Assembly (NCBI GenBank): GCA_023954655.1
Contig: JAGSHH010000001.1
Location: forward strand, 1 to 63,288
Direction: 5' to 3'
DNA length: 63,288 nt
From: Colwelliaceae bacterium
GTDB taxonomy: Bacteria; Pseudomonadota; Gammaproteobacteria; Enterobacterales; Alteromonadaceae
Shown: one piece after another, positions 3,359 through 32,163 of the stretch
Layout of the letters: each line of letters starts with the position of its first letter
Position numbering within the stretch: the stretch's first letter is position 1
The notes under the pieces: generated by a model
The model's input: the letters and a program-made list of their open reading frames with translations, nothing else
The model's database searches: none
What the model was told of the DNA's origin: nothing
Position numbers and translations under genes: made by a program

Positions 3359-3661
3359 TTAATCAATTTCAGCGATATTAATACCAATAAGATAAGTATC
3401 TGTACTTTCTTCAGTAACACGAACAACTTTACCTTGAACATCTAAAGGTTGCACAGTGTTACCTGAAGAATTAACACTGACACGAACATTTGTATTTAAT
3501 TCTATAGGATGAGACATTTCTATCGCCATTCCAGTAGCGCTTAGGTCACGACATGTTGCAAAAATATCACTGTTAGCTTCATCATCAATAATGGTTACTG
3601 AAACATCACTATTTAACATCATACGATAAAAATCACGCTTATCATCATAATTTACCATCAC
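3359..3661 (-). CDS. Single-domain PilZ c-di-GMP receptor
   Basis: RDFYR (RxxxR) and DLSATG (DxSxxG). Confidence 0.9.
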   Translation of the reverse strand: MMVNYDDKRDFYRMMLNSDVSVTIIDDEANSDIFATCRDLSATGMAIEMSHPIELNTNVRVSVNSSGNTVQPLDVQGKVVRVTEESTDTYLIGINIAEID

Positions 3662-3741: not shown

Positions 3742-3755
3742 TTGATTAAAATCAA
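3742..3755. promoter_or_regulatory. FNR-type box
   Basis: TTGATtaaaATCAA, exact match to TTGAT-N4-ATCAA. Confidence 0.55.
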
Positions 3756-3764
3756 CTTCTTATA

Positions 3765-6700
3765 TTAGTTGAGATCTTTTAAATGATTTGCAATACGTTT
3801 CGCCGAAATTGGGTAAGGTGTTTTCAAATTTTGTGCAAACATTGAGACTTTTAACTCTTCAATCATCCATCGTGTTTTATTCACTTGGGTTAATTGATAC
3901 AAATCCTGCTTACTTTTAGCTTGAGCTTGCTCAAAACTTTTTTGAACCTTATCAAGTTCAATCATTTTTAATCGATCTTGATTAGGATCAACCGGAAGCT
4001 TTTCCATTCTTCTTAATATGGCTTTTAAATAACGCTCTATATCAGATATTTTTTGATAGCCCGTTTCAGTGATGAAGCCTTTGAAAACAAGTTGTTGTAA
4101 GTGATGTTTAATATCTCCATGTGACTGAATCACATTCAACGGTACATTACCTTTGAGCTTTTTGTTTATCTCATGAGTCAATTGTAAAACTTGTTCAACT
4201 TTAATGGCTAATTCGAGGACACAATCGGCGATTTCCGCACGAATAAAATCTTTACATTCAGCGAAACTTTTCTCATCTCTTGGAATGTCTGAATGTGATT
4301 TTACTAGATATTGGCAAGAAGCTAGAATACAGTCATTGAGTAAGTCCGAGATTGAACCGAAAGGATTAAAATATAAACCAAGCTTAGATTTATTCGGTAA
4401 TTTCTGTTGTAAATACTTAATTGGTGAAGGAATATTTAATAAAATGAGTCGAGCAACTCCTGTTAACATTGCTTGCTCAGCTAACAATTCATGTTCAAAT
4501 AATTCGATTGCAACATTGTTCTTTTTATCAACCACTGCAGGAAAAGCTTTAATGGTTAGATTAGCAACTTTTTTTTGATAATTTTTAGGTAAGTTATTAA
4601 AGTCCCATTCAGTAATGTCATTACGTTCAATTCCTTTGTCGGCTACTTTTTGAATAGACGCTTTAACTTTACCCTGTAACTTTTCTTGTAATAAGTGTAA
4701 TGATCTACCCTGTTCTACAACCTTACCTTTTTCATTGATAATTTTAAAATTCATTTGTAAATGAAGTGGTAATTCAAGACCTAACCAGCTTTCATCATTT
4801 AACCTGACTCCTGTCATACGTAATAGCTGTTTACTCACTGCTTGTTGAAGTGAATTTTGATCTTGAGAAATTGCTGCCATGCACGCATCAGCATAATTTG
4901 GTGCAGGAACGAAGTTACGTCTTAACGCTTTAGGAAGCCCTTTAATCAATGCAATAATTAATTCATAACGTAATGCAGGAATTTGCCAATCAAAACCTTG
5001 CTCTTGTACCTGGTTTAATACACCTAATGGGATATGAACACTTACACCGTCATCAATATCACCAGGCGTGAAGTGATACGTTAAAGGAAAAGTTAAGTTA
5101 CCTTGTTGCCAAAAATCAGGGTATTCAGTTTTAGTTATTTTTTTACTATCTTCATTTAGTAGAAACTCTCGAGTAAAATTTAATAACTTAGGTTTGTCGG
5201 CTTTAGTTTTTTTCCACCAAGATAAGAAACTACGTTGACAAATTACTTCTTCTGGAAGCTTTTCACTATAAAAACTAAATAACTGTTCTTCATCAATAAG
5301 AAAGTCTTTACGTCGTGCTTTTTGCTCTAACTTTTCAACTTCCTTAACTAAGTCTAAATTACGCTGGTAAAAAGATTCTCTGATATTAGCATCACCATTT
5401 ACCAATGCTTCTCTAATAAATAGCTCACGGCAAGTATTAGGTTCTATTTTATTAAATTGCACCTTTCTTTTAGAAACAATAATCAAACCGTATAAAGAAA
5501 GCTGCTCATAGCCCATCACTGAGCCTTGTTTTTTCTCCCAATGCGGTTCGCTGTAATTTCTTTTTAGTAAATGCCCTGCCATGGGTTCGATCCACAAAGG
5601 ATCAATCTTGGCGACCATACGACCAAACAATCGACTTGTTTCAACAAGTTCTGCAGCCATTAACCATTTAGGTGGTTTTTTGGCAACAGCAGAACCAGGA
5701 AAAATGAAAAACTTTGAGCCTCTTGCACCCTTATATTCTCGGTTTTCATCCTGTTGTCCTAAATGGCTTAGTAAGCCAGATAAAATAGCTTGGTGAATAA
5801 CATCTTGCCCTTGTGTGTTTTCTTCATCAAGGGTTATAGAAGACATAGCAATATGATTATCTTTAAGTGCTAATTTTAATTGGCTAAAAATGTCCTGCCA
5901 TTCTCGAATACGAATATACGAAAGAAACTCTTTTTGACACAATCTTCTAAACTGGCTATTAGTTAACGCTTTTTGTTGCTCTTTTACATACAACCATAAA
6001 TTTAAAAAACTAATAAAATCAGATTGCTTATCTTTAAAACGACTATGTTTTTCATCGGAAGCTTGTTGCTTTTCAAAAGGACGTTCTCGTGGATCTTGAA
6101 TACTCAAGGCGCTAACAATAATAAATACTTGTTCAATACAACCTAAATCAATGGCTGTTAAAATCATTTTAGCAAGGCGAGGATCAACTGGAAACTTAGC
6201 TAATAAACGACCTACTTTTGTTAAAGCACTCGTTCGGTTTGCTTGTTTAATATTAACGGCATTTAGTTCTTCAAGTAAACGGACACCATCATTAATATTA
6301 CGGTTATCAGGCGGCTCAACAAAAGGAAAATCAGAAATATCACCTAAATCTAGCGATAACATTTGAAGAATAACCGTGGCTAAATTTGTTCTTAATATTT
6401 CAGGATCAGTAAATTCAGGTCGATTTAAATAATCATCTTCTGAATATAATCGAATACAAACACCTTCAGAGACACGACCACAGCGTCCTGCCCTTTGATT
6501 AGCACTCGCTTGAGATATAGCTTCAATAGGAAGACGCTGAACTTTTGTTCGGTAACTATAACGAGAAACCCTTGCTGTTCCTGGATCAATGACATATTTA
6601 ATCCCTGGTACTGTCAGGCTTGTTTCTGCAACGTTTGTTGCTAGGACAATATTACGGCCAGAATGAGGCTGAAATATTCGATTTTGCTCTTGTACTGTTA

Positions 6701-7727
6701 AACGAGAGAATAATGGTAAAATTTGAGTATGGCGTAAATTGGCTTTTTCTAATGCAGAAGCTGTATCTCGAATTTCACGTTCACCATTTAAAAAGATTAA
6801 TATATCACCATTACCATAATTCGATAATTCATCAACCGCGTGTAAGATCCCAGATATTACATCGACATCTTCACTTTGTTCATCTTTCATTTCACTTAAT
6901 GGACGATAAATCATTTCAACAGGGAATGTACGACCTGATACTTCAATTATTGGTGCTAAGTCACCAGAGGAGTTTTTGAAGTGAGCAGCAAAGCGTTGAG
7001 GGTCAATCGTTGCAGAAGTAATAATAACCTTAAGATCAGGACGCTTTGGTAGAATTTGCTTTAAATAACCTAAAATAAAATCGATATTTAAACTACGTTC
7101 ATGGGCTTCATCAATAATTAACGTATCGTATTGGCGTAATAAACGATCATTTTGCATTTCAGCAAGTAAAATACCGTCTGTCATTAATTTGATATAACTT
7201 TTATCACTTACTTGATCTGTAAAACGAACTTTATATCCAACTATATCTCCGATTGAGCTTTCAAGTTCATCAGCAATACGTGTAGCAACAGTTCTAGCTG
7301 CAATTCGCCTCGGCTGAGTATGACCAATCATTCCTTCGACACCGCGACCAAGTTGTAAGCATATTTTAGGTATCTGAGTAGTTTTACCTGAGCCTGTTTC
7401 ACCCGCAATAATCACCACTTGATTATCTTCTATGGCTTTTGCTATTTTTTCAACGTTTTGGGATACAGGTAGGTTTTCTGGGTAATGAATTTTAAGCGTT
7501 TGTTTTAGCTTATTTTCTTTATGAGTAATAGATTTTTGAATATGCTGCGCAAGTTGATTTAATTGACGTTGTTTATTATCCTGCTGCTTTTTATCGACTT
7601 GCTTAAGTTTTTTTAAATGCTGCAGTCGTTTTTTAAAACGCGGCTTATCACAAAGCCGAGTTTTATTTAATAAAGAAAATAGTGCATCTGTAGTGATGCT
7701 GTTATCAGGGGAAACTTCAGAAGACAA
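3765..7727 (-). CDS. hrpA: ATP-dependent RNA helicase HrpA
   Basis: GETGSGKT, HTQPRRIAA, DEAHER, SAT, QRAGRCGR; 1320 aa; C-terminal ELKVSMFAQ; TTG start. Confidence 0.96.
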   Translation of the reverse strand: MSSEVSPDNSITTDALFSLLNKTRLCDKPRFKKRLQHLKKLKQVDKKQQDNKQRQLNQLAQHIQKSITHKENKLKQTLKIHYPENLPVSQNVEKIAKAIEDNQVVIIAGETGSGKTTQIPKICLQLGRGVEGMIGHTQPRRIAARTVATRIADELESSIGDIVGYKVRFTDQVSDKSYIKLMTDGILLAEMQNDRLLRQYDTLIIDEAHERSLNIDFILGYLKQILPKRPDLKVIITSATIDPQRFAAHFKNSSGDLAPIIEVSGRTFPVEMIYRPLSEMKDEQSEDVDVISGILHAVDELSNYGNGDILIFLNGEREIRDTASALEKANLRHTQILPLFSRLTVQEQNRIFQPHSGRNIVLATNVAETSLTVPGIKYVIDPGTARVSRYSYRTKVQRLPIEAISQASANQRAGRCGRVSEGVCIRLYSEDDYLNRPEFTDPEILRTNLATVILQMLSLDLGDISDFPFVEPPDNRNINDGVRLLEELNAVNIKQANRTSALTKVGRLLAKFPVDPRLAKMILTAIDLGCIEQVFIIVSALSIQDPRERPFEKQQASDEKHSRFKDKQSDFISFLNLWLYVKEQQKALTNSQFRRLCQKEFLSYIRIREWQDIFSQLKLALKDNHIAMSSITLDEENTQGQDVIHQAILSGLLSHLGQQDENREYKGARGSKFFIFPGSAVAKKPPKWLMAAELVETSRLFGRMVAKIDPLWIEPMAGHLLKRNYSEPHWEKKQGSVMGYEQLSLYGLIIVSKRKVQFNKIEPNTCRELFIREALVNGDANIRESFYQRNLDLVKEVEKLEQKARRKDFLIDEEQLFSFYSEKLPEEVICQRSFLSWWKKTKADKPKLLNFTREFLLNEDSKKITKTEYPDFWQQGNLTFPLTYHFTPGDIDDGVSVHIPLGVLNQVQEQGFDWQIPALRYELIIALIKGLPKALRRNFVPAPNYADACMAAISQDQNSLQQAVSKQLLRMTGVRLNDESWLGLELPLHLQMNFKIINEKGKVVEQGRSLHLLQEKLQGKVKASIQKVADKGIERNDITEWDFNNLPKNYQKKVANLTIKAFPAVVDKKNNVAIELFEHELLAEQAMLTGVARLILLNIPSPIKYLQQKLPNKSKLGLYFNPFGSISDLLNDCILASCQYLVKSHSDIPRDEKSFAECKDFIRAEIADCVLELAIKVEQVLQLTHEINKKLKGNVPLNVIQSHGDIKHHLQQLVFKGFITETGYQKISDIERYLKAILRRMEKLPVDPNQDRLKMIELDKVQKSFEQAQAKSKQDLYQLTQVNKTRWMIEELKVSMFAQNLKTPYPISAKRIANHLKDLN

Positions 7728-22853: not shown

Positions 22854-24932
22854 TCACTTGTTTTTTTGTTTCATTATTTGAATAACTAAATGGCAAAATT
22901 GTCGATACTCTTGTTTCACTATTTGGATCAATTCGACTTTTTCATCTTCAGTATTTTCTTTATATTGCAAATGACCAACACTCTCTACAAATCGCTGATA
23001 ACATTGCCCAAGATTCGTATCGTGTAATAACACTTGCTCCAAAAATTGCTTTTGTAACTGCTCGTTTTTTTTAATTAGCCCCATTTCTCTCAGTTTATTA
23101 TGTACATCTAGATAATATCTTATCCATACTTGTGTTTTATTTAAGGGTTTAGACCATAAATGTAGCAACCAAAGTATCATCCAAGTCATAATAATTGTTA
23201 TTGAAATAATGATTGCCGACTTAAGGTTAAAGTCATCACCAAACCAAGATTTTAATAAGTTTTTTTGTTTTTCTTGAGAGAAATTAATAACGAGCTTTGT
23301 CCATTGATAATCTAATGCCTCAAACTGCAGTTTAAATTTATTCAACCAAACTGCACTTAGGTAACTATCAAAATAAAAACCAGAAGAAAGAGATTCTTGC
23401 TCAAACAACAGTTGGTCAGAGAAACCTTGTTCGACACGGCTAGGATCAACAGCGGCGGTAGGGTCTATTCTTACCCAACCCACACCCGACAACCAAACTT
23501 CACTCCACGCATGCGCATCCCTTTGATAAATACTGTAGTAATCGCCTTGAGAGTTATAATCCCCTCCTAAATAACCTAAAACCATACGAGCAGGAATACC
23601 TACAGCACGCATCAGAAAAGTAAAACTGCTGGCATAATGTTCACAAAATCCTGCTTGAGTATCAAAATAAAATTCATCTAGGCTATTATTACTTAATGTC
23701 GGCGGGCTTAATGTATATCGGTAATTCTGTTGTCTAAAGTTTAATAAAACCTGCTGAATTAGCTCATGGTTATCTTGATACTCACGACGTAAATTATTTG
23801 CCAACACCACAAGTCTAGGGTTTGATCTTTCAACTGTAGCTATATTTAAGTGTTTATCTTCATCTGTGAGATCTATATCTGTTGCGCTATCAATATAACT
23901 AGTGACTTTATACGATAGCGGTTGTGCTATTTTATCTCGACTAAATAATGTTTGATCATTAAGTTGGTAGACAATCTTATTTTGTTTAACATGTTCAAGC
24001 TTGGGCACATCTAAAGAAAAAAGCCAACGTTGGTAACTGGGTTCGGCTATCACTTCATAACTTAATGGCTGTTTATTAAAGTCCAAATTTTTATTCAATT
24101 GCTCTTTTTTTAAAATATCTTCTTTTGTTTTTTTTGTTCTTCGCCAAGTTTTACCGTCAAAATCCTCTAAAACTAGAGCCCGCCAGTACATTTGACTATA
24201 ATTTGGACGCTCATTTGAAAACTCGACTCTAAAAGCCAATTCATTAGATAAAGCTAAATTTGAAATATCTCCTACAGAAACATTATCACTTAACCCTGTT
24301 GTTGCCGATTTAGCCATAGGGACATGCCAAAATGGTGAGATTTTTGGAAAAAAAACAAATAAAACAATCGCCAAAGGAAAGCTTTGTAATAATAATTTAA
24401 AAGATGTTCTCAATTGTATGAATAAGTTTTTATTATAAGAAAAGTAACATAACCACCAAGCAATATTTAGTGTCACCAATATAATAATAAAGACTGAAAA
24501 ATAGATAGATTGATTAAAAATAAATGAACTGGCTAATATAAATAACCCGAGAACTATTAATTGATAAAGGTCACTAGTTTTATGCAATTCAAATGGTTTT
24601 AACAGGTATGATAAACACAATAAGTGGATCATCCCTATTAAAACCCCCATATCATTAGTCGAAACTCCCAAAAGAATACAACCCGTTATCGCTATAAAAA
24701 ACTTAATAATACGAGAAGGCTTTGCAATATATTGTTGATGGATAGATATATGCCAGAGCAAACATACTAATGAAAGTGCAATAAACCAAAATGAAAGTTC
24801 AGTTACTAAAGTTAAAATATTTAATGCTTGAATGGCCACTAAGGAGAGTTTTAGTGAGTACGGCATACTTAAGTACGTAAGTTTGTTTTTTGATGAGTTC
24901 TTAGAAAAAAACTTATTAATCGTTAAAGTCAT
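22854..24932 (-). CDS. Membrane-anchored transglutaminase (TgpA/DUF3488 family)
   Basis: Multi-TM N-terminus; TGLSD, YWR, catalytic GFCEHYA, HAWSEVW, IDPT. Confidence 0.9.
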   Translation of the reverse strand: MTLTINKFFSKNSSKNKLTYLSMPYSLKLSLVAIQALNILTLVTELSFWFIALSLVCLLWHISIHQQYIAKPSRIIKFFIAITGCILLGVSTNDMGVLIGMIHLLCLSYLLKPFELHKTSDLYQLIVLGLFILASSFIFNQSIYFSVFIIILVTLNIAWWLCYFSYNKNLFIQLRTSFKLLLQSFPLAIVLFVFFPKISPFWHVPMAKSATTGLSDNVSVGDISNLALSNELAFRVEFSNERPNYSQMYWRALVLEDFDGKTWRRTKKTKEDILKKEQLNKNLDFNKQPLSYEVIAEPSYQRWLFSLDVPKLEHVKQNKIVYQLNDQTLFSRDKIAQPLSYKVTSYIDSATDIDLTDEDKHLNIATVERSNPRLVVLANNLRREYQDNHELIQQVLLNFRQQNYRYTLSPPTLSNNSLDEFYFDTQAGFCEHYASSFTFLMRAVGIPARMVLGYLGGDYNSQGDYYSIYQRDAHAWSEVWLSGVGWVRIDPTAAVDPSRVEQGFSDQLLFEQESLSSGFYFDSYLSAVWLNKFKLQFEALDYQWTKLVINFSQEKQKNLLKSWFGDDFNLKSAIIISITIIMTWMILWLLHLWSKPLNKTQVWIRYYLDVHNKLREMGLIKKNEQLQKQFLEQVLLHDTNLGQCYQRFVESVGHLQYKENTEDEKVELIQIVKQEYRQFCHLVIQIMKQKNK

Positions 24933-24942
24933 TATTTAAGTT

Positions 24943-25956
24943 TCACCTATGCTCATTATTCGTTATAGGTGAATTAAAAGTAGCTAATGCTACTAAACAT
25001 TGTTTTAAGTGCCCTTCACCTAAATTTGGTGTAGTTAGCTCATCTGTGTCTTGATCATTTAATTGTAAACCAAATTCAATGCCTGTTTGATGTAATTGCA
25101 ACACCAAGTAACATAGCTTTCTAAGCTTGGCTTCTATAGAAAGACCTTCAATTTCGGATAATGTCAAAATTACCGAATGATTATGGGTTTGAGAATATTG
25201 CTTAGTCATCCAATGATTACCTTTTGCAACTTGTTTCCAAGCAACTTGGCTAAACGGCTCTCCTTTTTGATACTGTTTCAATTCATAGAAATCTTCCCCT
25301 TTTTGCATAACTCCTGCAACGCTTTCTTGGTCATTTTCTCTTTGGTCAGTAATTGTTGTTGAATTGTACGTTTCACAAATTAAAGGTTTTGGATAAACAA
25401 TCACTTCAACGTCAAACTGTAGTTTTGTCCAACAGTGAAAAAATGCAAATGGATATTCACTCGAAAGAATTAAACGCTTAAGTTTATGACTTCCTCTATG
25501 GTTAAAAGTTACCGGTAAAGTTATGGGTTGATCACTGTCAATAAAAGATACATTTATAGATTCATGATCATAAAAGTTCATTGATAAGGTCTGTTTTAAA
25601 TGTTTGGCAGAAACATCAATTGGAATATTAATAACGTCTTCAGCAAAGCCTTGATATGTTCCTTTTGCCGAAACCGATAAACCCGCCAAATTCATAAAAC
25701 AATAAATCATCGCAGTGATAAACAAACTGCCAAATAAATAACTAGTAAGAATGATTAAGTTATTTTGATAATTAGTGCCTAAAATAAAAAGTAATAAAAT
25801 AAAAAACAAATAGGCAAAACCAAAATAACTTGGAAATATAAAAATATTTTTTTGAGTTAAGGTTTGTCTTTGTTGGCTCGGCATTCTTTTATTTAACCAA
25901 TGATTAAATCGTCGATTAATCACAGTATTTATCTGTTCTTTTATAGAAGTGAACAT
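24943..25956 (-). CDS. DUF58 domain protein
   Basis: GTNYQNNL, YPFAFF, VYPKP, GEDFYELKQYQKGE..VAWK. Confidence 0.88.
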   Translation of the reverse strand: MFTSIKEQINTVINRRFNHWLNKRMPSQQRQTLTQKNIFIFPSYFGFAYLFFILLLFILGTNYQNNLIILTSYLFGSLFITAMIYCFMNLAGLSVSAKGTYQGFAEDVINIPIDVSAKHLKQTLSMNFYDHESINVSFIDSDQPITLPVTFNHRGSHKLKRLILSSEYPFAFFHCWTKLQFDVEVIVYPKPLICETYNSTTITDQRENDQESVAGVMQKGEDFYELKQYQKGEPFSQVAWKQVAKGNHWMTKQYSQTHNHSVILTLSEIEGLSIEAKLRKLCYLVLQLHQTGIEFGLQLNDQDTDELTTPNLGEGHLKQCLVALATFNSPITNNEHR

Positions 25957-25977
25957 AGATAAAATATCCGGTAATGT

Positions 25978-26907
25978 TTAATTTTTTGAATCAAAAGGTT
26001 GAATGTAATCAACCATCTTGAGTAATTGATTTGAAAACAATTCATTCATATGAGATTGCTTGCCAACCATTCTGTGTTCACAAACAGAGCTAAACACGGC
26101 TTTAACATCATCAGGTACGACATGCGCTCTATTTTCCATAAAGGCCCAGGCTTTCGCGGCAGCAATTAATGACTTACCCGCCCGAGGCGAAAGAGGATTA
26201 ACAGATATTTCTCCAGTTCGGGTGTGTTGAAATAATGCAATAACATAATCAAGAATAGACTCGGAAACATGTGTTTCACTTACTTGCTTTTGAATTTTCT
26301 GTAGTTGTTCAAGTGTGATACATGCATCAACATCCGTTAAATCAACTGACTTATTTGTCATAGATAATATTTTCCTTTCCGCATCTCGATCAGGAAAACC
26401 TAATGAAATTCTCATCATAAAACGATCTAATTGTGATTCAGGTAAAGGATAGGTACCAGCGTGAAAGATAGGGTTTTGAGTTGCAATAACAAAAAAAGGC
26501 CTTGGTAAATTATGCGTACTTCCATCGATACTGACACTATTTTCTTCCATTGCTTCCAATAGAGCACTTTGTGTTTTAGGGCTTGCTCGATTAATTTCAT
26601 CCGCCAAAACAACTTGATTAAAAATGGGTCCTTTGTGAAGGGTAAAGTTTTGGTTAGTTGAATCGAAAATTGAAACACCAATAACATCAGCTGGTAATAA
26701 ATCACTCGTAAATTGAACCCGTTGATAACTAAGTCCTAATGAAGATGCTAAAACATGCGCTAAAGTTGTTTTACCCATACCCGGCAAATCTTCTATCAAC
26801 AAGTGACCCCTAGCTAATAGACAAGCAAGTGCTAATCTAACTTGTTCTGGCTTTCCTATAACAAACTTTTCAATTTGACATAAAGCTTTTGTTATCAATG
26901 ATTGCAT
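25978..26907 (-). CDS. MoxR family AAA+ ATPase
   Basis: LIEDLPGMGKT, RVQFTSDLLPAD, DEINRASPKTQSALLEAMEE, LPESQLDRF. Confidence 0.94.
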   Translation of the reverse strand: MQSLITKALCQIEKFVIGKPEQVRLALACLLARGHLLIEDLPGMGKTTLAHVLASSLGLSYQRVQFTSDLLPADVIGVSIFDSTNQNFTLHKGPIFNQVVLADEINRASPKTQSALLEAMEENSVSIDGSTHNLPRPFFVIATQNPIFHAGTYPLPESQLDRFMMRISLGFPDRDAERKILSMTNKSVDLTDVDACITLEQLQKIQKQVSETHVSESILDYVIALFQHTRTGEISVNPLSPRAGKSLIAAAKAWAFMENRAHVVPDDVKAVFSSVCEHRMVGKQSHMNELFSNQLLKMVDYIQPFDSKN

Positions 26908-26951: not shown

Positions 26952-26993
26952 TTGACCTTAATCAAAAATCAACATCTTTGAGTATGACATGCT
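26952..26993 (+). promoter_or_regulatory. FNR box plus extended -10 (class II geometry) of the GCS2 operon
   Basis: TTGACcttaATCAA at 26952-26965; TGnCATGCT at 26985-26993 places the box centre at -41.5. Confidence 0.6.
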
Positions 26994-27023
26994 GTCGTCA
27001 AGTTAACAAAAAGGACGGTAGCT

Positions 27024-28484
27024 ATGGGGCAAAATATTGAACAATCAATTTTTACTGGACATGACTATAATCTTTTTCAAAACAAGCTTTTCGAACAATT
27101 AGAACAATTAAAAGAAAATATTTCTTCCCCTAAATTCGGCACTGAAGAATTAAAAATGGGGGCCGAATTAGAATTATATTTAGTCGATGAACACGGTGAA
27201 GCACAACTCAATAATCAACTTATTCTGAATAAAATAAACGACAAACAATTCCAACCTGAATTAAATCAATATAATTTAGAACTCAACCTGTTACCCGTTA
27301 TTCAGCGAGGTAAACCATTTAGTCAATTGCACAATGAAATGAGTCACAAAATCGCCAAACTCGAAAAAATTGCAAACGAGTGCGATACCAATATAACACC
27401 CATAGGTATTCTTCCAACACTAAGAAAAAAACACTTAAATACCCAATGTATGACAAATATTCCTAGATATACTTGTTTAGCTGAACATTTATATAAAGAA
27501 CGAGGTGAAAACTTTAAAATAAATATTAATGGTAAAGACCCCTTGCTTGTCGATTTTTCTGATATTTGCGCTGAAGGAGCAAATACTTCATTTCAAGTAC
27601 ATTTAATGACAAAGCCTGAGCAATTAGTTAATACTTTTAATGCCGCTCAATTAACTTTGTCACTAGTCACCGCAATTTCTGCCAATTCCCCCATATTTTT
27701 AGGAAAGACCTTGTGGCATGAAACAAGAATTGCCTTATTTAAACAATCTTTAGATATTCGCCACAGGAAACAATTTCAATGGCAACAACCTACTCGTGTT
27801 AATTTTGGACATGGCTGGCTGAGAAATAACATTTGGGAGTTTTTTGCGCAGACAGTAGCTTTGTACCCTCCACTCATCCCTTATGTTAATAAAAACAAGC
27901 ATAAAAACAATTTAGCATTAGAAGAATTATGTTTTCATTTAGGCACAATCTGGCCGTGGAACCGCCCGGTATACAGCCCTGATAACAATGGTCATATCAG
28001 AATAGAATTTAGAGCAATACCTGCAGGTCCTACTTCTGTTGATATGATTGCCAATGCAGCATTCGCGATTGGTTTAGCTACCGGATTACAAAATGATATT
28101 GAAGAATTAATTACTTATATCCCTTTTAAATATGCTGAATATAACTTTTACCGAGCTGCACAATCAGGCCTAGATGCAAAAATTTTGTGGCCAAGTAAAA
28201 ATAAAGTACAACCCCAAGAAATTGACATAAAACAAGTAATTGCAAAATTATTGCCTACAGCATTGAAAGGATTGATTTCTCTCAATATAAATGAAAAAGA
28301 AGCACAGTATTATCTCAGCATAATAGAAGAACGTTTAGCTAAACAGTTTACTGGCGCTGTATGGCAAAAGAATACTTTAGAACGTTTACAAAGAAAAATG
28401 ACCAACGATAAAGCGTGCCAGCAGCTTGTTCAACACTATATAAAAAATAGTAGAAGCTGTCAGCCAGTAGCTACATGGGAATGA
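27024..28484 (+). CDS. Glutamate--cysteine ligase family 2 (GCS2-like) carboxylate-amine ligase
   Basis: GAELELYLVD, PELNQYNLE, GILPTL, TSFQVH, ANSP, ETRIALF, WPWNRPVY, HIRIEFRAIPAGPT. Confidence 0.85.
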   Translation: MGQNIEQSIFTGHDYNLFQNKLFEQLEQLKENISSPKFGTEELKMGAELELYLVDEHGEAQLNNQLILNKINDKQFQPELNQYNLELNLLPVIQRGKPFSQLHNEMSHKIAKLEKIANECDTNITPIGILPTLRKKHLNTQCMTNIPRYTCLAEHLYKERGENFKININGKDPLLVDFSDICAEGANTSFQVHLMTKPEQLVNTFNAAQLTLSLVTAISANSPIFLGKTLWHETRIALFKQSLDIRHRKQFQWQQPTRVNFGHGWLRNNIWEFFAQTVALYPPLIPYVNKNKHKNNLALEELCFHLGTIWPWNRPVYSPDNNGHIRIEFRAIPAGPTSVDMIANAAFAIGLATGLQNDIEELITYIPFKYAEYNFYRAAQSGLDAKILWPSKNKVQPQEIDIKQVIAKLLPTALKGLISLNINEKEAQYYLSIIEERLAKQFTGAVWQKNTLERLQRKMTNDKACQQLVQHYIKNSRSCQPVATWE

Positions 28485-29533
28485 ATATGAACATAGACTT
28501 TAGTGACATCGAATATTTAGAAAATCCTGACGAAATAACCTTAAAAGCCGATTTTCAACAATTTTTGCTTTCATTAGATGTGCCAACCATTATTGATATT
28601 ACAGGTAAAGATCCTAAAAGATGTAGAGTCATTGTTACTTTGTTACACGGTAACGAACCCTCAGGTTTAATCGCTATTCATCGTTGGTTAACATCTAATG
28701 GTGAGTTACCTTCCCCTGAAACAAATTTACGATTTATCATATGCTCTGTCGAAGCAGCTAATGCTACACCACTTTTAAGTCATAGGTTTTTAGAAAAAGG
28801 TCTAGACATAAATCGTTGTTTTGGTAATAGCCAAAACCATGGTTATTACAAGCGCGCTAAAGCTATCGAAAATGCTATAAATGAAGTAAGCCCTGAAGTT
28901 GTCGTTGACTTACATAACACTTCTGGTTCAGGCCCTGCGTTTGCTGTATCTCCATTGTTATCAACAAGAGGCTTATCGCTTACATCATTTTTCTGTGATG
29001 CAATAATACTATCTGGTTTGGAATTAGGGGCATTAATGGAACAAGACTTTAATTGTCCTACAATCACCATTGAATGCGGCGGAGCAAATGACGAACAAGC
29101 CCATGAAGTTGCATTCGAGGGAATACATCAATTGGCAAGTTGCCCATCAATAGATAATTTTCATCAAGAAAAATCGGTTGAAATAGTTTACAAACCACTA
29201 CGACTAGAACTTAAGCCTCATAAAAGCCTTTCTTACAGTAATCATAATGAAGGAAACAATGGTGTAACATTATTGTCAAAAATCGAACAATTCAATTTTG
29301 GTGGAGCCCATAAAGGACAAATGCTTGGCTGGTTAGATGAACACGGCCTAGATAACTTACAATTGATTAATGAAAATCAAGAAAATGTCATTTCTGATTA
29401 TTTTACAGTAAGAGATAACCAATTGGTTTGTGCTACAAACCTTCGAATTTTTATGGCCACACCGAGTTTTGAAATAGCTCAAAATGATTGTTTATTTTAC
29501 ATTGTAAATTTAACTGGCTCGTCAAGTATTTAA
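28481..29533 (+). CDS. Succinylglutamate desuccinylase/aspartoacylase (M14) family zinc amidohydrolase
   Basis: HGNE, DINRCF, DLHNT, TIECG; ATG 28481 overlaps the upstream TGA (ATGA). Confidence 0.85.
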   Translation: MNMNIDFSDIEYLENPDEITLKADFQQFLLSLDVPTIIDITGKDPKRCRVIVTLLHGNEPSGLIAIHRWLTSNGELPSPETNLRFIICSVEAANATPLLSHRFLEKGLDINRCFGNSQNHGYYKRAKAIENAINEVSPEVVVDLHNTSGSGPAFAVSPLLSTRGLSLTSFFCDAIILSGLELGALMEQDFNCPTITIECGGANDEQAHEVAFEGIHQLASCPSIDNFHQEKSVEIVYKPLRLELKPHKSLSYSNHNEGNNGVTLLSKIEQFNFGGAHKGQMLGWLDEHGLDNLQLINENQENVISDYFTVRDNQLVCATNLRIFMATPSFEIAQNDCLFYIVNLTGSSSI

Positions 29534-29623: not shown

Positions 29624-30292
29624 ATGGATTTAGATTTTCTCTCAGCTTTTATCATTGGTTTTTTAGGCGGTGGACACTGTATTTCTATGTGTGGTGGCAT
29701 AACCACAATGCTAACTTCAGCTTTACCTGATCAGCAACAATCAAAACTTCCTTATTTATTAAGTTATAATATTGGTCGTATATTTTCATACTCTCTTATT
29801 GGAGCAATAGCTGGTTTTACTGGTTCAATAGCCGTTAAAAGTATTGGCTTTCCAATTGTTGCCTTAAAAATGTTTGCTGGCATTTTTCTTATATTACTTG
29901 GGTTATACATCGGGCAATGGTTAATGTGGTTAACTAAAGTTGAATTTATTGGCAAGCGTCTATGGAAAATTCTATCCCCGATTAGTAAAAAGCTTATCCC
30001 TATTGATACCGTTAAAAAATCTTTATTACTTGGCATGTTATGGGGATGGTTGCCCTGTGGCTTAGTCTATTCAACATTAACGTGGTCTTTGGCAAGTGGT
30101 AATGCAGTAAATGGAGCTCTAATTATGACATTTTTTGGTCTAGGAACTCTTCCAGCATTATTAACAATTTCATTTGGGATTATTAACATAAAACTAATTT
30201 TACAGAACATATTATTCAGAAAATTAATGGCCTTATTATTGATATTTTATGGATTAATTACTTTAAAATTTGCAACCGAGCTCATGTTTTAA
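29624..30292 (+). CDS. DsbD_2/TauE-SafE-like membrane protein (usually cco-fnr associated)
   Basis: [37 protein letters not shown]. Confidence 0.88.
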
Positions 30293-30341
30293 TAATATTG
30301 AACTTGTCGATTATCATTCCCATATAGAAATTAAGGGCAAC

Positions 30342-31061
30342 ATGTACAAAAATCAGTGTTCAGCACAACAGCATATTCATTGTCAAAACTGTAGTATCAG
30401 TGAGTTATGCTTACCTTTTTCTCTTAATGACAAAGAACTAGAAACACTTGATCAAATTATTGATCGCAAACGCCCTATTCATAAAGGTGAGCAAATTTTT
30501 CAAGATGGTGAAAAAATGCAATCACTTTATGCTATTCGATCTGGCACTTTTAAAACATTTACAGTTAATGAAAGTGGTGAAGAGCAAATCACAGGTTTTC
30601 ATTTAGCAGGAGATTTATTAGGCTTCGATGCTATTGCTGAATCTGAACATCCAAGTTTTGCTAAAGCTTTAGAAACATCAATGGTATGTGAAATTCCTTA
30701 TAATACTTTAGATGCATTATCGAATAATATGCCAAAGTTAAAAAAACAAATTTTACGTATGATGAGTTCTGAAATTAAAACAGATCAAGAAATGTTAACC
30801 TTACTTAATCGCAAAAATGCTGAACAACGTTTAGCAACTTTTCTTAGTGCCCTCAGCACTCGCTATCATGCCAGAGGTTTATCAGCTACTGAATTTAGAT
30901 TAACAATGACACGTAGTGATATTGGTAATTACATTGGACTAACTGTTGAAACGATTAGTCGTTTACTAAATCGTTTTCATAAGAATGGTCTCATTCAAGT
31001 AGACGGTAAGTTAATCACTATTTTAGATAGTGACAAATTAGAAGATTGTGCTGCTTTATAG
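30342..31061 (+). CDS. fnr: Anaerobic regulator FNR/EtrA (start moved to ATG 30342)
   Basis: [10 protein letters not shown] Fe-S ligands, [24 protein letters not shown]. Confidence 0.96.
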
Positions 31062-31143
31062 CAGCCTTTTTCATTCCCCCTATTTAAACTATTTCCCTAA
31101 CATTATTTTCCCTTCCGTGTTAATTCAATTTAAAGCTTGATTT

Positions 31144-31157
31144 TTGATTTAAAACAA
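31144..31157. promoter_or_regulatory. FNR-type box upstream of uspE
   Basis: TTGATttaaAACAA (1 mismatch). Confidence 0.55.
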
Positions 31158-31233
31158 GCTTTAACTGTGTGTTTTATAAGAATATAACTATACTAAAAAT
31201 AATCACTATGTATTGACAAAATTGGAGTCGATA

Positions 31234-32163
31234 ATGGAAAAATATCAACAAATATTAGCGATAATTGATCCAACTACTGAAGATCAAAAAGCGCTAAAAA
31301 GAGCAATAGAGCTAGCAACTCAAACTAAAGCTCGTATCACCGCTTTCCTCTCAATTTATGACTTTTCATATGAAATGACCACCATGTTATCGAGTGATGA
31401 AAGAGAAGCGATGAGACAATCATTAATTAATGATCGTACTCAATGGCTTAATGAATTACTCAAAACTATCCCTCATGATGGAATTGCTATCGATTCAAAT
31501 GTAATTTGGCATAACCGTCCATTTGAACCCATTATTGCAGAAGTAATGACTAATGGTTATGACATTGTGATTAAAGGAACACATCAGCATGATAAATTGA
31601 AATCTGTGATTTTCACCCCTACAGATTGGCATATTCTAAGAAAATGCCCATGCCCTGTATTATTAGTTAAAGAACATTCTTGGCCAATGAATGGAAATAT
31701 TGTTGCGGCGCTTAATGTTGGTAGTGATGAACTTGAACATCAATCTCTTAACACTAAAATAACCGAAGAAGCCGTTAATTTATCGAAGCTCATTAAAGCT
31801 AATATTCATTTAGTAAACTCTTTCCCTGGTACACCTGTCAATATTGCAATAGAAATTCCAGAGTTTAATGCCAGCGAATATAACGAATCAATGTTTAACC
31901 ATCACGTTGAAGCTATGCAAAACCATGCAGAAAAGTTCAGTATCAACAAAGATCATACGCATGTTGAAGAAGGTTTACCTGAGGATATAATTGTAAGGCT
32001 CTCTGAAGAGTTAGATGCTGAACTTGTCATACTAGGTACCATTGGAAGAACAGGTTTTTCAGCTGCACTCATTGGTAATACAGCTGAACATGTGATCGAC
32101 AATTTAAATTGTGATGTTTTAGCACTCAAACCTAATGGCTATATTTCTCCTTTGGCAAAGTAA
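31234..32163 (+). CDS. uspE: Universal stress protein E (start moved to ATG 31234)
   Basis: YDFSYEMTTMLS, WHNRPFE, FTPTDWHILRKCP, GRTGFSAALIGNTAE; GGAG RBS. Confidence 0.95.
   Translation: MEKYQQILAIIDPTTEDQKALKRAIELATQTKARITAFLSIYDFSYEMTTMLSSDEREAMRQSLINDRTQWLNELLKTIPHDGIAIDSNVIWHNRPFEPIIAEVMTNGYDIVIKGTHQHDKLKSVIFTPTDWHILRKCPCPVLLVKEHSWPMNGNIVAALNVGSDELEHQSLNTKITEEAVNLSKLIKANIHLVNSFPGTPVNIAIEIPEFNASEYNESMFNHHVEAMQNHAEKFSINKDHTHVEEGLPEDIIVRLSEELDAELVILGTIGRTGFSAALIGNTAEHVIDNLNCDVLALKPNGYISPLAK

What the first reader, a model, noticed from the sequence alone, without database searches (positions are those of the whole stretch)
26952..29533. Candidate uncharacterised system: FNR-driven GCS2 ligase plus M14 hydrolase writer/eraser pair
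Seen: a 486-aa GCS2-fold ligase (GAELE, FQVH, RIEFR motifs) overlaps by ATGA an M14 zinc amidohydrolase (HGNE, NR, DLH, E). Upstream, TTGACcttaATCAA sits at -41.5 relative to a TGnCATGCT extended -10. Known: GCS2 enzymes form ATP-dependent gamma-glutamyl amides, AstE/AspA enzymes cleave N-acyl amino acid amides, and -41.5 is class II FNR geometry. The ligase does not look like classical GshA and no ast genes are nearby. Inference: a low-oxygen-induced reversible glutamylation cycle on an unknown metabolite, peptide or protein.
Basis: partly seen in the sequence, partly recalled or inferred. Interest (0 to 1): 0.72.

Follow-up and report, generated by a model that had tools for sequence, protein, structure and literature searches.

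The report
Low-oxygen amide ligase–hydrolase gene pair
Two overlapping genes sit behind a conserved binding-site sequence for the low-oxygen regulator FNR and encode an unstudied enzyme pair that likely makes and then splits a glutamate–amino-acid dipeptide, which would be a small-molecule cycle not found described in the papers searched.

Summary
A 486-aa glutamate–cysteine-ligase-fold gene (27024–28484) overlaps an AstE/AspA-type zinc hydrolase gene (28481–29533). The genome also has its own GshA, GshB, AstE and AstA.

- Pairing: adjacent in 20 of 22, 18 of 18 and 52 of 80 loci across three surveys, and sometimes fused.
- Promoter: the FNR box precedes 24 of 39 family ligases (0.6 expected), with a −10-like hexamer at class II spacing in 21 of 24. 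It is rare outside this family.
- Coupling: seven catalytic residues are intact in 109 of 109 paired hydrolases but only 17 of 27 orphans.
- Substrate: both active sites point to a gamma-glutamyl–amino-acid dipeptide, and unrelated gamma-glutamyl-type hydrolases take the partner's place in 5 loci.

Against a strict writer/eraser: each gene often occurs alone, orphan hydrolases keep the promoter under purifying selection, and nothing points to a protein target. Substrate, activity and FNR control are untested. I found no paper on the pair, but one key survey could not be read. The scan noted this pair before on two other genomes. Verdict: a real, uncharacterised new variant of known ligase/hydrolase logic.

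The parts
26952..26965 (+). FNR-type box TTGACCTTAATCAA, 1 mismatch to the recalled consensus TTGAT-N4-ATCAA; centre 65 nt upstream of the ligase ATG
   Evidence: a box lies before 24 of 39 family ligase loci against 0.63 expected and before 24 of 27 orphan hydrolases
26985..26993 (+). Extended -10-like element TGaCATGCT; would put +1 at about 27000 (inferred)
   Evidence: YAnnnT 21-23 nt after the box in 21 of 24 loci against 3.2 background
27011..27015 (+). Likely ribosome-binding site AAGGA
   Evidence: read from the sequence; inference
27024..28484 (+). 486-aa carboxylate-amine ligase of the glutamate-cysteine ligase fold; conserved E48, E50, E79, E86, R148, Y149, E184, H193, R235, R258, W312, R314, R326, E328, R330
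28481..29533 (+). 348-350-aa AstE/AspA-type (M14) zinc amidohydrolase; H54, E57, H143 (zinc), R100, N109, R110 (carboxylate site), E196 (catalytic), E185; residue roles assigned by analogy; numbering from the ATG at 28487

Best explanation
The two genes form a conserved, overlapping pair behind a conserved FNR-type box, and they likely run a small-molecule cycle: the ligase is predicted to use ATP to join the gamma-carboxyl of glutamate to the amino group of a free alpha-amino acid, the zinc enzyme is predicted to split that dipeptide again, and FNR would switch both on at low oxygen. Shown: gene anatomy, folds, conserved residues, pairing and fusion, and the promoter footprint. Inferred: the chemistry (from fold and residues), the amino-acid nature of the acceptor (ligase R148; hydrolase R100/N109/R110), the low-oxygen induction, and the purpose (a reversible store or buffer of glutamate and the partner amino acid when respiration slows, with the CBS tails of fused relatives as likely energy sensors). 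A basic acceptor (Lys, Arg, Orn, His) is my first guess, about 0.3, from a conserved acidic residue in each enzyme.
For: Ligase model pLDDT 95.6. Best structural matches are YbdK-type Z 36.7 (rmsd 2.4, 345 aligned), plant GCL Z 31.9 (3.0, 379) and yeast GCL Z 28.4 (3.1, 472 of 486); Dop and PafA score Z 19.4 and 18.1. R235 aligns with yeast R313 and R148/Y149 with the plant RY motif, R220/Y221 by offset. PMC6463388 (two passages seen) puts Arg220 at the acceptor end of the tunnel binding a carboxylate; the Cys-carboxylate and Glu-carboxylate roles of these arginines are recalled, not read. R148 is kept in 140 of 141 ligases and R235 in 141 of 141. The hydrolase fold matches AstE Z 21.6, CphZ 18.8 and ASPA 17.4. 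In CphZ, R102/N112/R113 bind the leaving amino acid's alpha-carboxylate (PMC9974463, parts 1-2 of 6 read), and R100/N109/R110 are invariant here. Adjacent in 20 of 22, 18 of 18 and 52 of 80 loci; 6 of 27 scanned longer or odd-length homologues are ligase-hydrolase fusions. Catalytic set intact in 109 of 109 paired, 17 of 27 orphan and 0 of 3 unpaired second copies, with erosion in five separate clades of a FastTree tree. Among 28 loci without the M14 partner, Peptidase_C26 is the upstream neighbour in 2 (L130, L141) and a GATase_4-type gene lies downstream in 3 (L132 and L143 by Pfam, L144 a contig-cut copy by resemblance); that these families include gamma-glutamyl hydrolases (PuuD; EgtC, Dug3) is recalled. 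GshA is in 250 of 251 family genomes and the ligase in 72. A four-cysteine FNR is encoded 0.8 kb downstream, and the ccoN promoter carries two similar boxes. USP, CBS, PNPOx-like and nitroreductase genes flank L137, L152 and L162 in other phyla.
Against: No activity, substrate, transcript or binding was measured. A make-and-break pair under one promoter is a futile cycle unless regulated, and this ligase has no CBS tail. The hydrolase survives without the ligase in 27 family genomes; 24 of those 27 keep the box, and dN/dS is 0.02-0.20 in orphan or second-copy pairs against 0.03-0.12 in paired ones, with dS near saturation in many. So it has a use without the ligase. The ligase has no hydrolase match in 22 of 28 genomes checked, many of them incomplete assemblies. 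The box is rare beyond the family and near relatives. The basic-acceptor hint rests on an ungapped motif match (GALME against CphZ-type GALDE/HPFDE) that profile alignment did not reproduce; only one of the two acids is present, and E185 is in 95 of 109 paired hydrolases. Kin are not independent in any count.
Confidence: 0.5

Rival explanations
1. The ligase is a second gamma-Glu-Cys ligase for low oxygen, and the hydrolase recycles gamma-Glu-Cys or trims glutathione: a thiol-buffer module.
For: Only yeast GCL covers the model end to end (472 of 486 residues, TM 0.79 by query length). The RY motif is shared with plant GCL. 24 of 73 family members touch Pfam GCS at E up to 0.1. Gamma-Glu-Cys fits the hydrolase's carboxylate site.
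Against: GshA is in 250 of 251 family genomes and GshB is in this genome. All 5 distant genomes checked hold another, much stronger GCS2 match. Two of five checked have no GshB match. The family-invariant E184 sits where the alignment has no acid in yeast or plant GCL (position inferred).
Confidence: 0.2
2. Writer/eraser of a protein or peptide mark: the ligase activates a protein's terminal or side-chain glutamate and adds an amino acid, and the M14 enzyme clips it off, as with Pup ligase or tubulin glutamylase and carboxypeptidase (recalled).
For: PafA arose from this fold (PMC2588565, passages seen). A terminal added amino acid would also fit the hydrolase's carboxylate site. Orphan copies that lost catalytic residues yet stay under purifying selection could be binding proteins.
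Against: Dop and PafA score far below the small-molecule ligases. No conserved third gene recurs across 100 loci (ORFs of 90 aa or more). At this locus the gaps on either side are 116 and about 90 nt, too short for a Pup-sized ORF beside the promoter.
Confidence: 0.12
3. Protect-convert-deprotect pathway like Puu (recalled): the ligase glutamylates an amine, enzymes encoded elsewhere convert it, and the hydrolase frees the product.
For: It avoids a futile cycle. Peptidase_C26 sits next to two ligases, and ATP-grasp or amidotransferase genes next to three others.
Against: No conserved oxidase, dehydrogenase or transporter accompanies the pair. R148 suggests the acceptor already carries a carboxylate. 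Glutamine-synthetase-type glutamylating enzymes are only Z 13-15 matches.
Confidence: 0.12
4. The hydrolase matters mainly as a non-catalytic partner or sensor, and its catalysis is secondary.
For: 13 of 30 unpaired copies lost a key residue but keep an intact ORF; the E196K trio has dN/dS 0.07-0.11.
Against: All 109 paired copies keep all seven residues.
Confidence: 0.06

Closest known systems
YbdK / GCS2 carboxylate-amine ligases (PF04107; PDB 1r8g, 1tt4)
   Same: Fold (Z 36-37), GxExE and QxH motifs, Pfam GCS2 above cut-off
   Different: About 15% identity, about 120 aa longer, far below every NCBIfam YbdK cut-off (best 43.5 against 409 bits); dedicated M14 partner
Eukaryotic glutamate-cysteine ligase (yeast, PDB 3ig5) and plant GCL (2gwc)
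   Same: Yeast enzyme aligns over model residues 1-484; arginines equivalent to R313 and R220 are kept
   Different: 17-19% identity, Pfam GCS below cut-off (15.7 against 25 bits); cysteine specificity untested; the host has its own GshA
AstE / aspartoacylase / CphZ (AotO) M14 hydrolases
   Same: Two-domain fold, H-E-H zinc set, R-N-R carboxylate site, catalytic Glu (residue roles from PMC9974463 and PMC5412892 passages)
   Different: 12-18% identity; separate AstE and CphZ-like genes exist in the genome; only one of CphZ's two side-chain acids; CphZ barely cleaves gamma-Glu-Arg
Ligase/hydrolase pairs PuuA-PuuD, EgtA-EgtC, RimK-RimB, PafA-Dop (all recalled, except PafA from PMC2588565)
   Same: An ATP-driven glutamyl ligase encoded with a hydrolase
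   Different: A different ligase family with an M14 hydrolase; no tailoring enzymes or tag protein; FNR-type promoter
The 'new carboxylate-amine ligase' families of PMC2588565 (passages seen)
   Same: GCS2-sized ligases beside amidotransferase-like peptidases, proposed to make glutathione-like peptides
   Different: Those passages name transglutaminase fusions, thiol peptidases and cyclotransferases; 'desuccinylase' and 'CBS' do not occur in the text. I did not test whether those examples belong to this family

Membership tests
GCS2 / carboxylate-amine ligase superfamily | Pfam PF04107 above gathering score; GxExE signature; glutamine-synthetase-type fold | tested here: met
   37 against 21 bits; G46/E48/E50; Z 36.7
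GCS2 / carboxylate-amine ligase superfamily | ATP-dependent gamma-glutamyl amide formation | not testable with these tools
   needs an enzyme assay
YbdK subfamily (TIGR02050, PRK13515-13517) | NCBIfam score over cut-off | tested here: not met
   23.7 against 176.4 and 43.5 against 409 bits
Classical GshA (PF04262) | PF04262 match | tested here: not met
   the genome's only match is on C65; BLASTP of that protein against the ligase gave no hit
Eukaryote-type GCL (PF03074) | Pfam score over cut-off | tested here: not met
   15.7 against 25 bits
Eukaryote-type GCL (PF03074) | Specific kinship (sister group) | tested here: inconclusive
   full-length structural match, but profile E-values are equal for yeast and plant GCL (0.35-0.36); no tree with eukaryotic sequences was built
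AstE/AspA M14 hydrolases (PF24827) | Pfam over cut-off; H-x-x-E...H zinc set; N-R; catalytic Glu; two-domain fold | tested here: met
   35 against 25 bits
AstE (succinylglutamate desuccinylase) | Orthology to AstE | tested here: not met
   the genome's top PF24827 match (E 6e-45) is on C43; 28% over 113 aa, E 0.009, to this protein
Aspartoacylase (NF002601) | NCBIfam score over cut-off | tested here: not met
   33.7 against 180 bits
CphZ / AotO | D222-E223 acidic pair for Arg/Lys | tested here: inconclusive
   motif-level match gives M184-E185, one acid of two; profile alignment did not reach this region
Pup ligase / Dop system | Adjacent small tag ORF or proteasome genes | tested here: not met
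   no room for one at this locus and no recurring third gene of 90 aa or more; shorter ORFs in other loci were not surveyed
Class II FNR-activated promoter | TTGAT-N4-ATCAA-like box centred near -41.5 relative to a -10 element, conserved in relatives | tested here: met
   consensus and geometry recalled from E. coli; +1 inferred
Class II FNR-activated promoter | Four-cysteine FNR with ETISR recognition helix in the genome | tested here: met
   window 30342-31061, Cys 14, 17, 23, 116
Class II FNR-activated promoter | FNR-dependent, low-oxygen transcription from that start | not testable with these tools
   needs a reporter or transcript assay
Puu-type gamma-glutamylation pathway | Linked oxidase, dehydrogenase and transporter genes | tested here: not met
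   no such recurring neighbour in 100 loci

The most novel reading that the evidence does not exclude
A widespread bacterial family that is the closest structural kin of the animal/fungal glutamate-cysteine ligase makes a new gamma-glutamyl isodipeptide (for example gamma-Glu-Arg or gamma-Glu-Lys) as a low-oxygen, energy-gated nitrogen store or signal. A dedicated zinc hydrolase removes it, and that hydrolase has been kept, in several lineages that lost the ligase, as an FNR-induced catalytically dead binding protein.
Probability: 0.15. Interest if true: 0.75.

Novelty: new variant of a known kind. Interest (0 to 1): 0.52.

Why it matters
The ligase family is large (518 clusters at 50% identity with E up to 1e-30), spans several phyla, and is routinely labelled 'glutamate-cysteine ligase' although its hosts already have one. 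If the reading holds, it gives that family a reaction, names a new gamma-glutamyl metabolite, and ties it to low-oxygen control in marine bacteria. Two soluble enzymes and one promoter make the question testable in a simple assay panel. The logic (glutamyl ligase plus hydrolase) is familiar, so it would be a new variant and not a new category.

Tried and rejected
- Complex prediction of ligase with hydrolase gave no verdict; it is not used either way.
- No RNA holder was listed for the region.
- A PF03074 search of 401 genomes was too insensitive: it found none of the known family members, so it says nothing on kinship with eukaryotic GCL.
- A search for homologues longer than 886 aa found none; weak evidence, since 915- and 965-aa fusions were seen.
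- The Atlas look-up with a homologue returned only this family's own clusters.
- phmmer of the ligase against PDB gave only short spurious NuoI hits.
- Profile alignment of the hydrolases to the genome's CphZ-like protein failed.
- The IQ-TREE run did not finish; the FastTree tree is midpoint-rooted with no clade test.
- Rejected, that the box serves the divergent MoxR operon: it stays with the ligase or hydrolase where the upstream gene differs.
- Rejected, that TTGACC is a plain -35 hexamer: no -10 at 16-18 nt was listed.
- Rejected as main reading, a Dnr-type regulator: only FNR and one cysteine-bearing paralogue were found, in an 81% complete genome.
- Rejected, that E185 equals aspartoacylase R168: on my recalled motif register it does not.
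- Literature: searches listed no paper on this pair (listings only). PMC13674229 (passages) concerns another system. Iyer et al. 2009 (Mol Biosyst, amidoligases), Hothorn 2006, Biterova 2009 and Copley 2002 were not held; the first may already list this neighbourhood. No supplements were read.

Full report
Observation. The ligase ORF runs 27024-28484 (486 aa) and the hydrolase ORF ends at 29533; an ATGA overlap lies at 28481-28484, with further in-frame ATGs at 28475 and 28487. Pfam assigns GCS2 and AstE_AspA_cat above cut-off, while every NCBIfam subfamily model stays far below its cut-off. Upstream are TTGACCTTAATCAA (26952-26965) and TGaCATGCT (26985-26993). The nearest named homologues are from Thalassotalea and other Colwelliaceae.

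Not housekeeping copies. The genome holds a classical GshA, GshB, AstE, AstA and gamma-glutamyltransferase matches elsewhere. Across 251 family genomes GshA is found in 250, the ligase in 72 and the hydrolase in 94; 67 have both. The five ligase-only genomes belong to one genus; in the three I fetched the ligase is about 635 aa and is followed by a divergent AstE/AspA gene, and in the one scanned it carries a CBS pair.

The pair is a unit, but not an obligate one. The hydrolase follows the ligase in 20 of 22 relative loci with downstream sequence, 18 of 18 further loci from a phylum sample, and 52 of the best 80 of more than 600 matches in the named genome collection (three of the 28 misses end within 500 nt of the gene). 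Record titles place adjacent pairs in Pseudomonadota, Myxococcota, Nitrospirales, Spirochaetaceae, Bacteroidota, Ignavibacteriae and one actinobacterium. Of 27 mostly longer homologues picked for scanning, 4 are ligase-hydrolase fusions, 2 ligase-CBS-hydrolase, 7 ligase-CBS and 1 ligase-PNPOx-like. For the 28 loci without the partner, the cognate hydrolase lies elsewhere in 2 genomes, weak matches occur in 4 and none in 22. In 5 of those 28 loci a Peptidase_C26 or GATase_4-type gene is a close same-strand neighbour (L144 is a contig-cut copy judged by resemblance). No third gene of 90 aa or more recurs beyond local synteny.

Coupling of catalysis. All 109 paired hydrolases that passed my filter (score over 100, profile positions 45-300 covered; divergent CBS-type partners excluded; the set includes those used to build the profile) keep H54, E57, R100, N109, R110, H143 and E196. 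Only 17 of 27 orphans and 0 of 3 unpaired second copies do. The eroded copies fall in five separate clades (no formal test). This suggests the ligase supplies the hydrolase's substrate. Against a simple story, orphans keep intact ORFs, dN/dS of 0.02-0.20 (many dS values near saturation) and, in 24 of 27, the box. In G002 the ligase is cleanly deleted and the same promoter now lies directly before the hydrolase. Ligase active-site residues are the same in 111 paired and 30 solo copies.

Chemistry. The ligase model (pLDDT 95.6) matches YbdK-type, plant and yeast ligases far better than Dop, PafA or glutamine synthetases. Yeast GCL alone aligns over nearly the whole chain (472 of 486). R235 aligns with yeast R313 and R148-Y149 with plant R220-Y221. 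PMC6463388 (passages) shows Arg220 binding a carboxylate at the acceptor end; the finer roles are recalled. The hydrolase model (pLDDT 93.6) matches AstE, CphZ, EutE and aspartoacylase. In CphZ the R-N-R triad binds the alpha-carboxylate of the leaving amino acid (PMC9974463, parts 1-2 of 6); aspartoacylase's catalytic residues are listed in PMC5412892 (passages). Both enzymes therefore point to an N-acyl-alpha-amino acid, most simply gamma-Glu-Xaa. The hydrolase's GALME lines up, ungapped, with the GALDE of the genome's CphZ-like protein, whose DE equals CphZ D222-E223. With the invariant ligase E184 this hints at a basic acceptor, but the hint is weak.

Promoter. One window cannot establish the box, but footprinting does. 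It is found before 24 of the 39 family ligase loci I held (of 72 positive genomes), 22 of them at -61 to -82 from the ATG, against 0.63 expected, with a -10-like hexamer 21-23 nt downstream in 21 of 24 against 3.2. In the wider set it is 20 of 117 against 0.9, nearly all in this family and close relatives, so FNR-type control is lineage-specific. A four-cysteine FNR is encoded at 30342-31061 and the ccoN promoter has two similar boxes. In other phyla three loci sit among USP, CBS, PNPOx-like, nitroreductase or GAF-kinase genes, which I recall as typical of low-oxygen regulons; this is anecdotal.

Mechanism and rivals. Most likely (0.5): an FNR-induced make-and-break cycle of a gamma-glutamyl amino acid, serving as a reversible store or buffer. 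Rivals: a second gamma-Glu-Cys ligase with a recycling enzyme (0.2), a protein writer/eraser (0.12), a Puu-like protect-and-deprotect pathway (0.12), and a mainly non-catalytic hydrolase (0.06). Nothing biochemical was tested.

Novelty. My paper searches listed nothing on this pair; the 2009 amidoligase survey could not be read and may mention it. The scan's own notes record the same pair on two other genomes (unchecked AI notes). Class: new variant of a known kind; interest 0.52.

Noticed in passing
L199, L212, L215; L198, L201, L202, L243, L244; L221-L224, L246: Ligase-less hydrolase copies with lost zinc or catalytic residues (E196K, H54Q, several at once) but intact ORFs; low dN/dS in the pairs tested and the FNR-type promoter in most; candidate pseudo-enzymes.
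   Followed up: partly
window 27024-28484 (model against PDB 3ig5): The ligase family aligns with yeast glutamate-cysteine ligase over 472 of 486 residues, including the N-terminal helix; possibly the nearest bacterial kin of the animal/fungal enzyme.
   Followed up: partly
window 29624-32163: Same-strand DsbD_2 membrane gene, four-cysteine fnr and a USP-type gene (label recalled) follow the pair; a 1-mismatch box lies at 31144-31157 before the last. ccoN is on another contig, C48.
   Followed up: partly
window 22854-26907 (-): Divergent MoxR-type AAA, DUF58 and TgpA transglutaminase-like operon; syntenic with the pair only in close relatives.
   Followed up: partly
window 3742-3755 and 3978-3991: Two perfect TTGAT-N4-ATCAA boxes: one 90 nt upstream of the short gene at 3359-3658, one inside the 1320-aa ORF at 3765-7727.
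   Followed up: no
L216:788-8701 (similar in L217, L218): CBS-fused ligase plus divergent M14 gene, transcribed away from an esterase, ATP-grasp, CBM20-esterase and second ATP-grasp-like cluster.
   Followed up: partly
L132:3147-8307; L143:6001-9710; L144: Myxobacterial ligases flanked by an asparagine-synthase-like gene, ATP-grasp or circularly permuted ATP-grasp genes and GATase_4; looks like a peptide-metabolite cluster.
   Followed up: no
L027:691-1818 (G000 C191): A third M14 gene, close to PDB 3fmc and 3lwu and related to CphZ (E 1e-24), downstream of genes that resemble diaminopimelate-pathway enzymes (labels recalled).
   Followed up: partly
G000 C85:9963-18966 and C48:12587-13330: FNR-type boxes before genes resembling nitrite reductase and NirQ/NorQ (labels recalled, not scanned), and a second cysteine-bearing FNR-like regulator just upstream of ccoN.
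   Followed up: no
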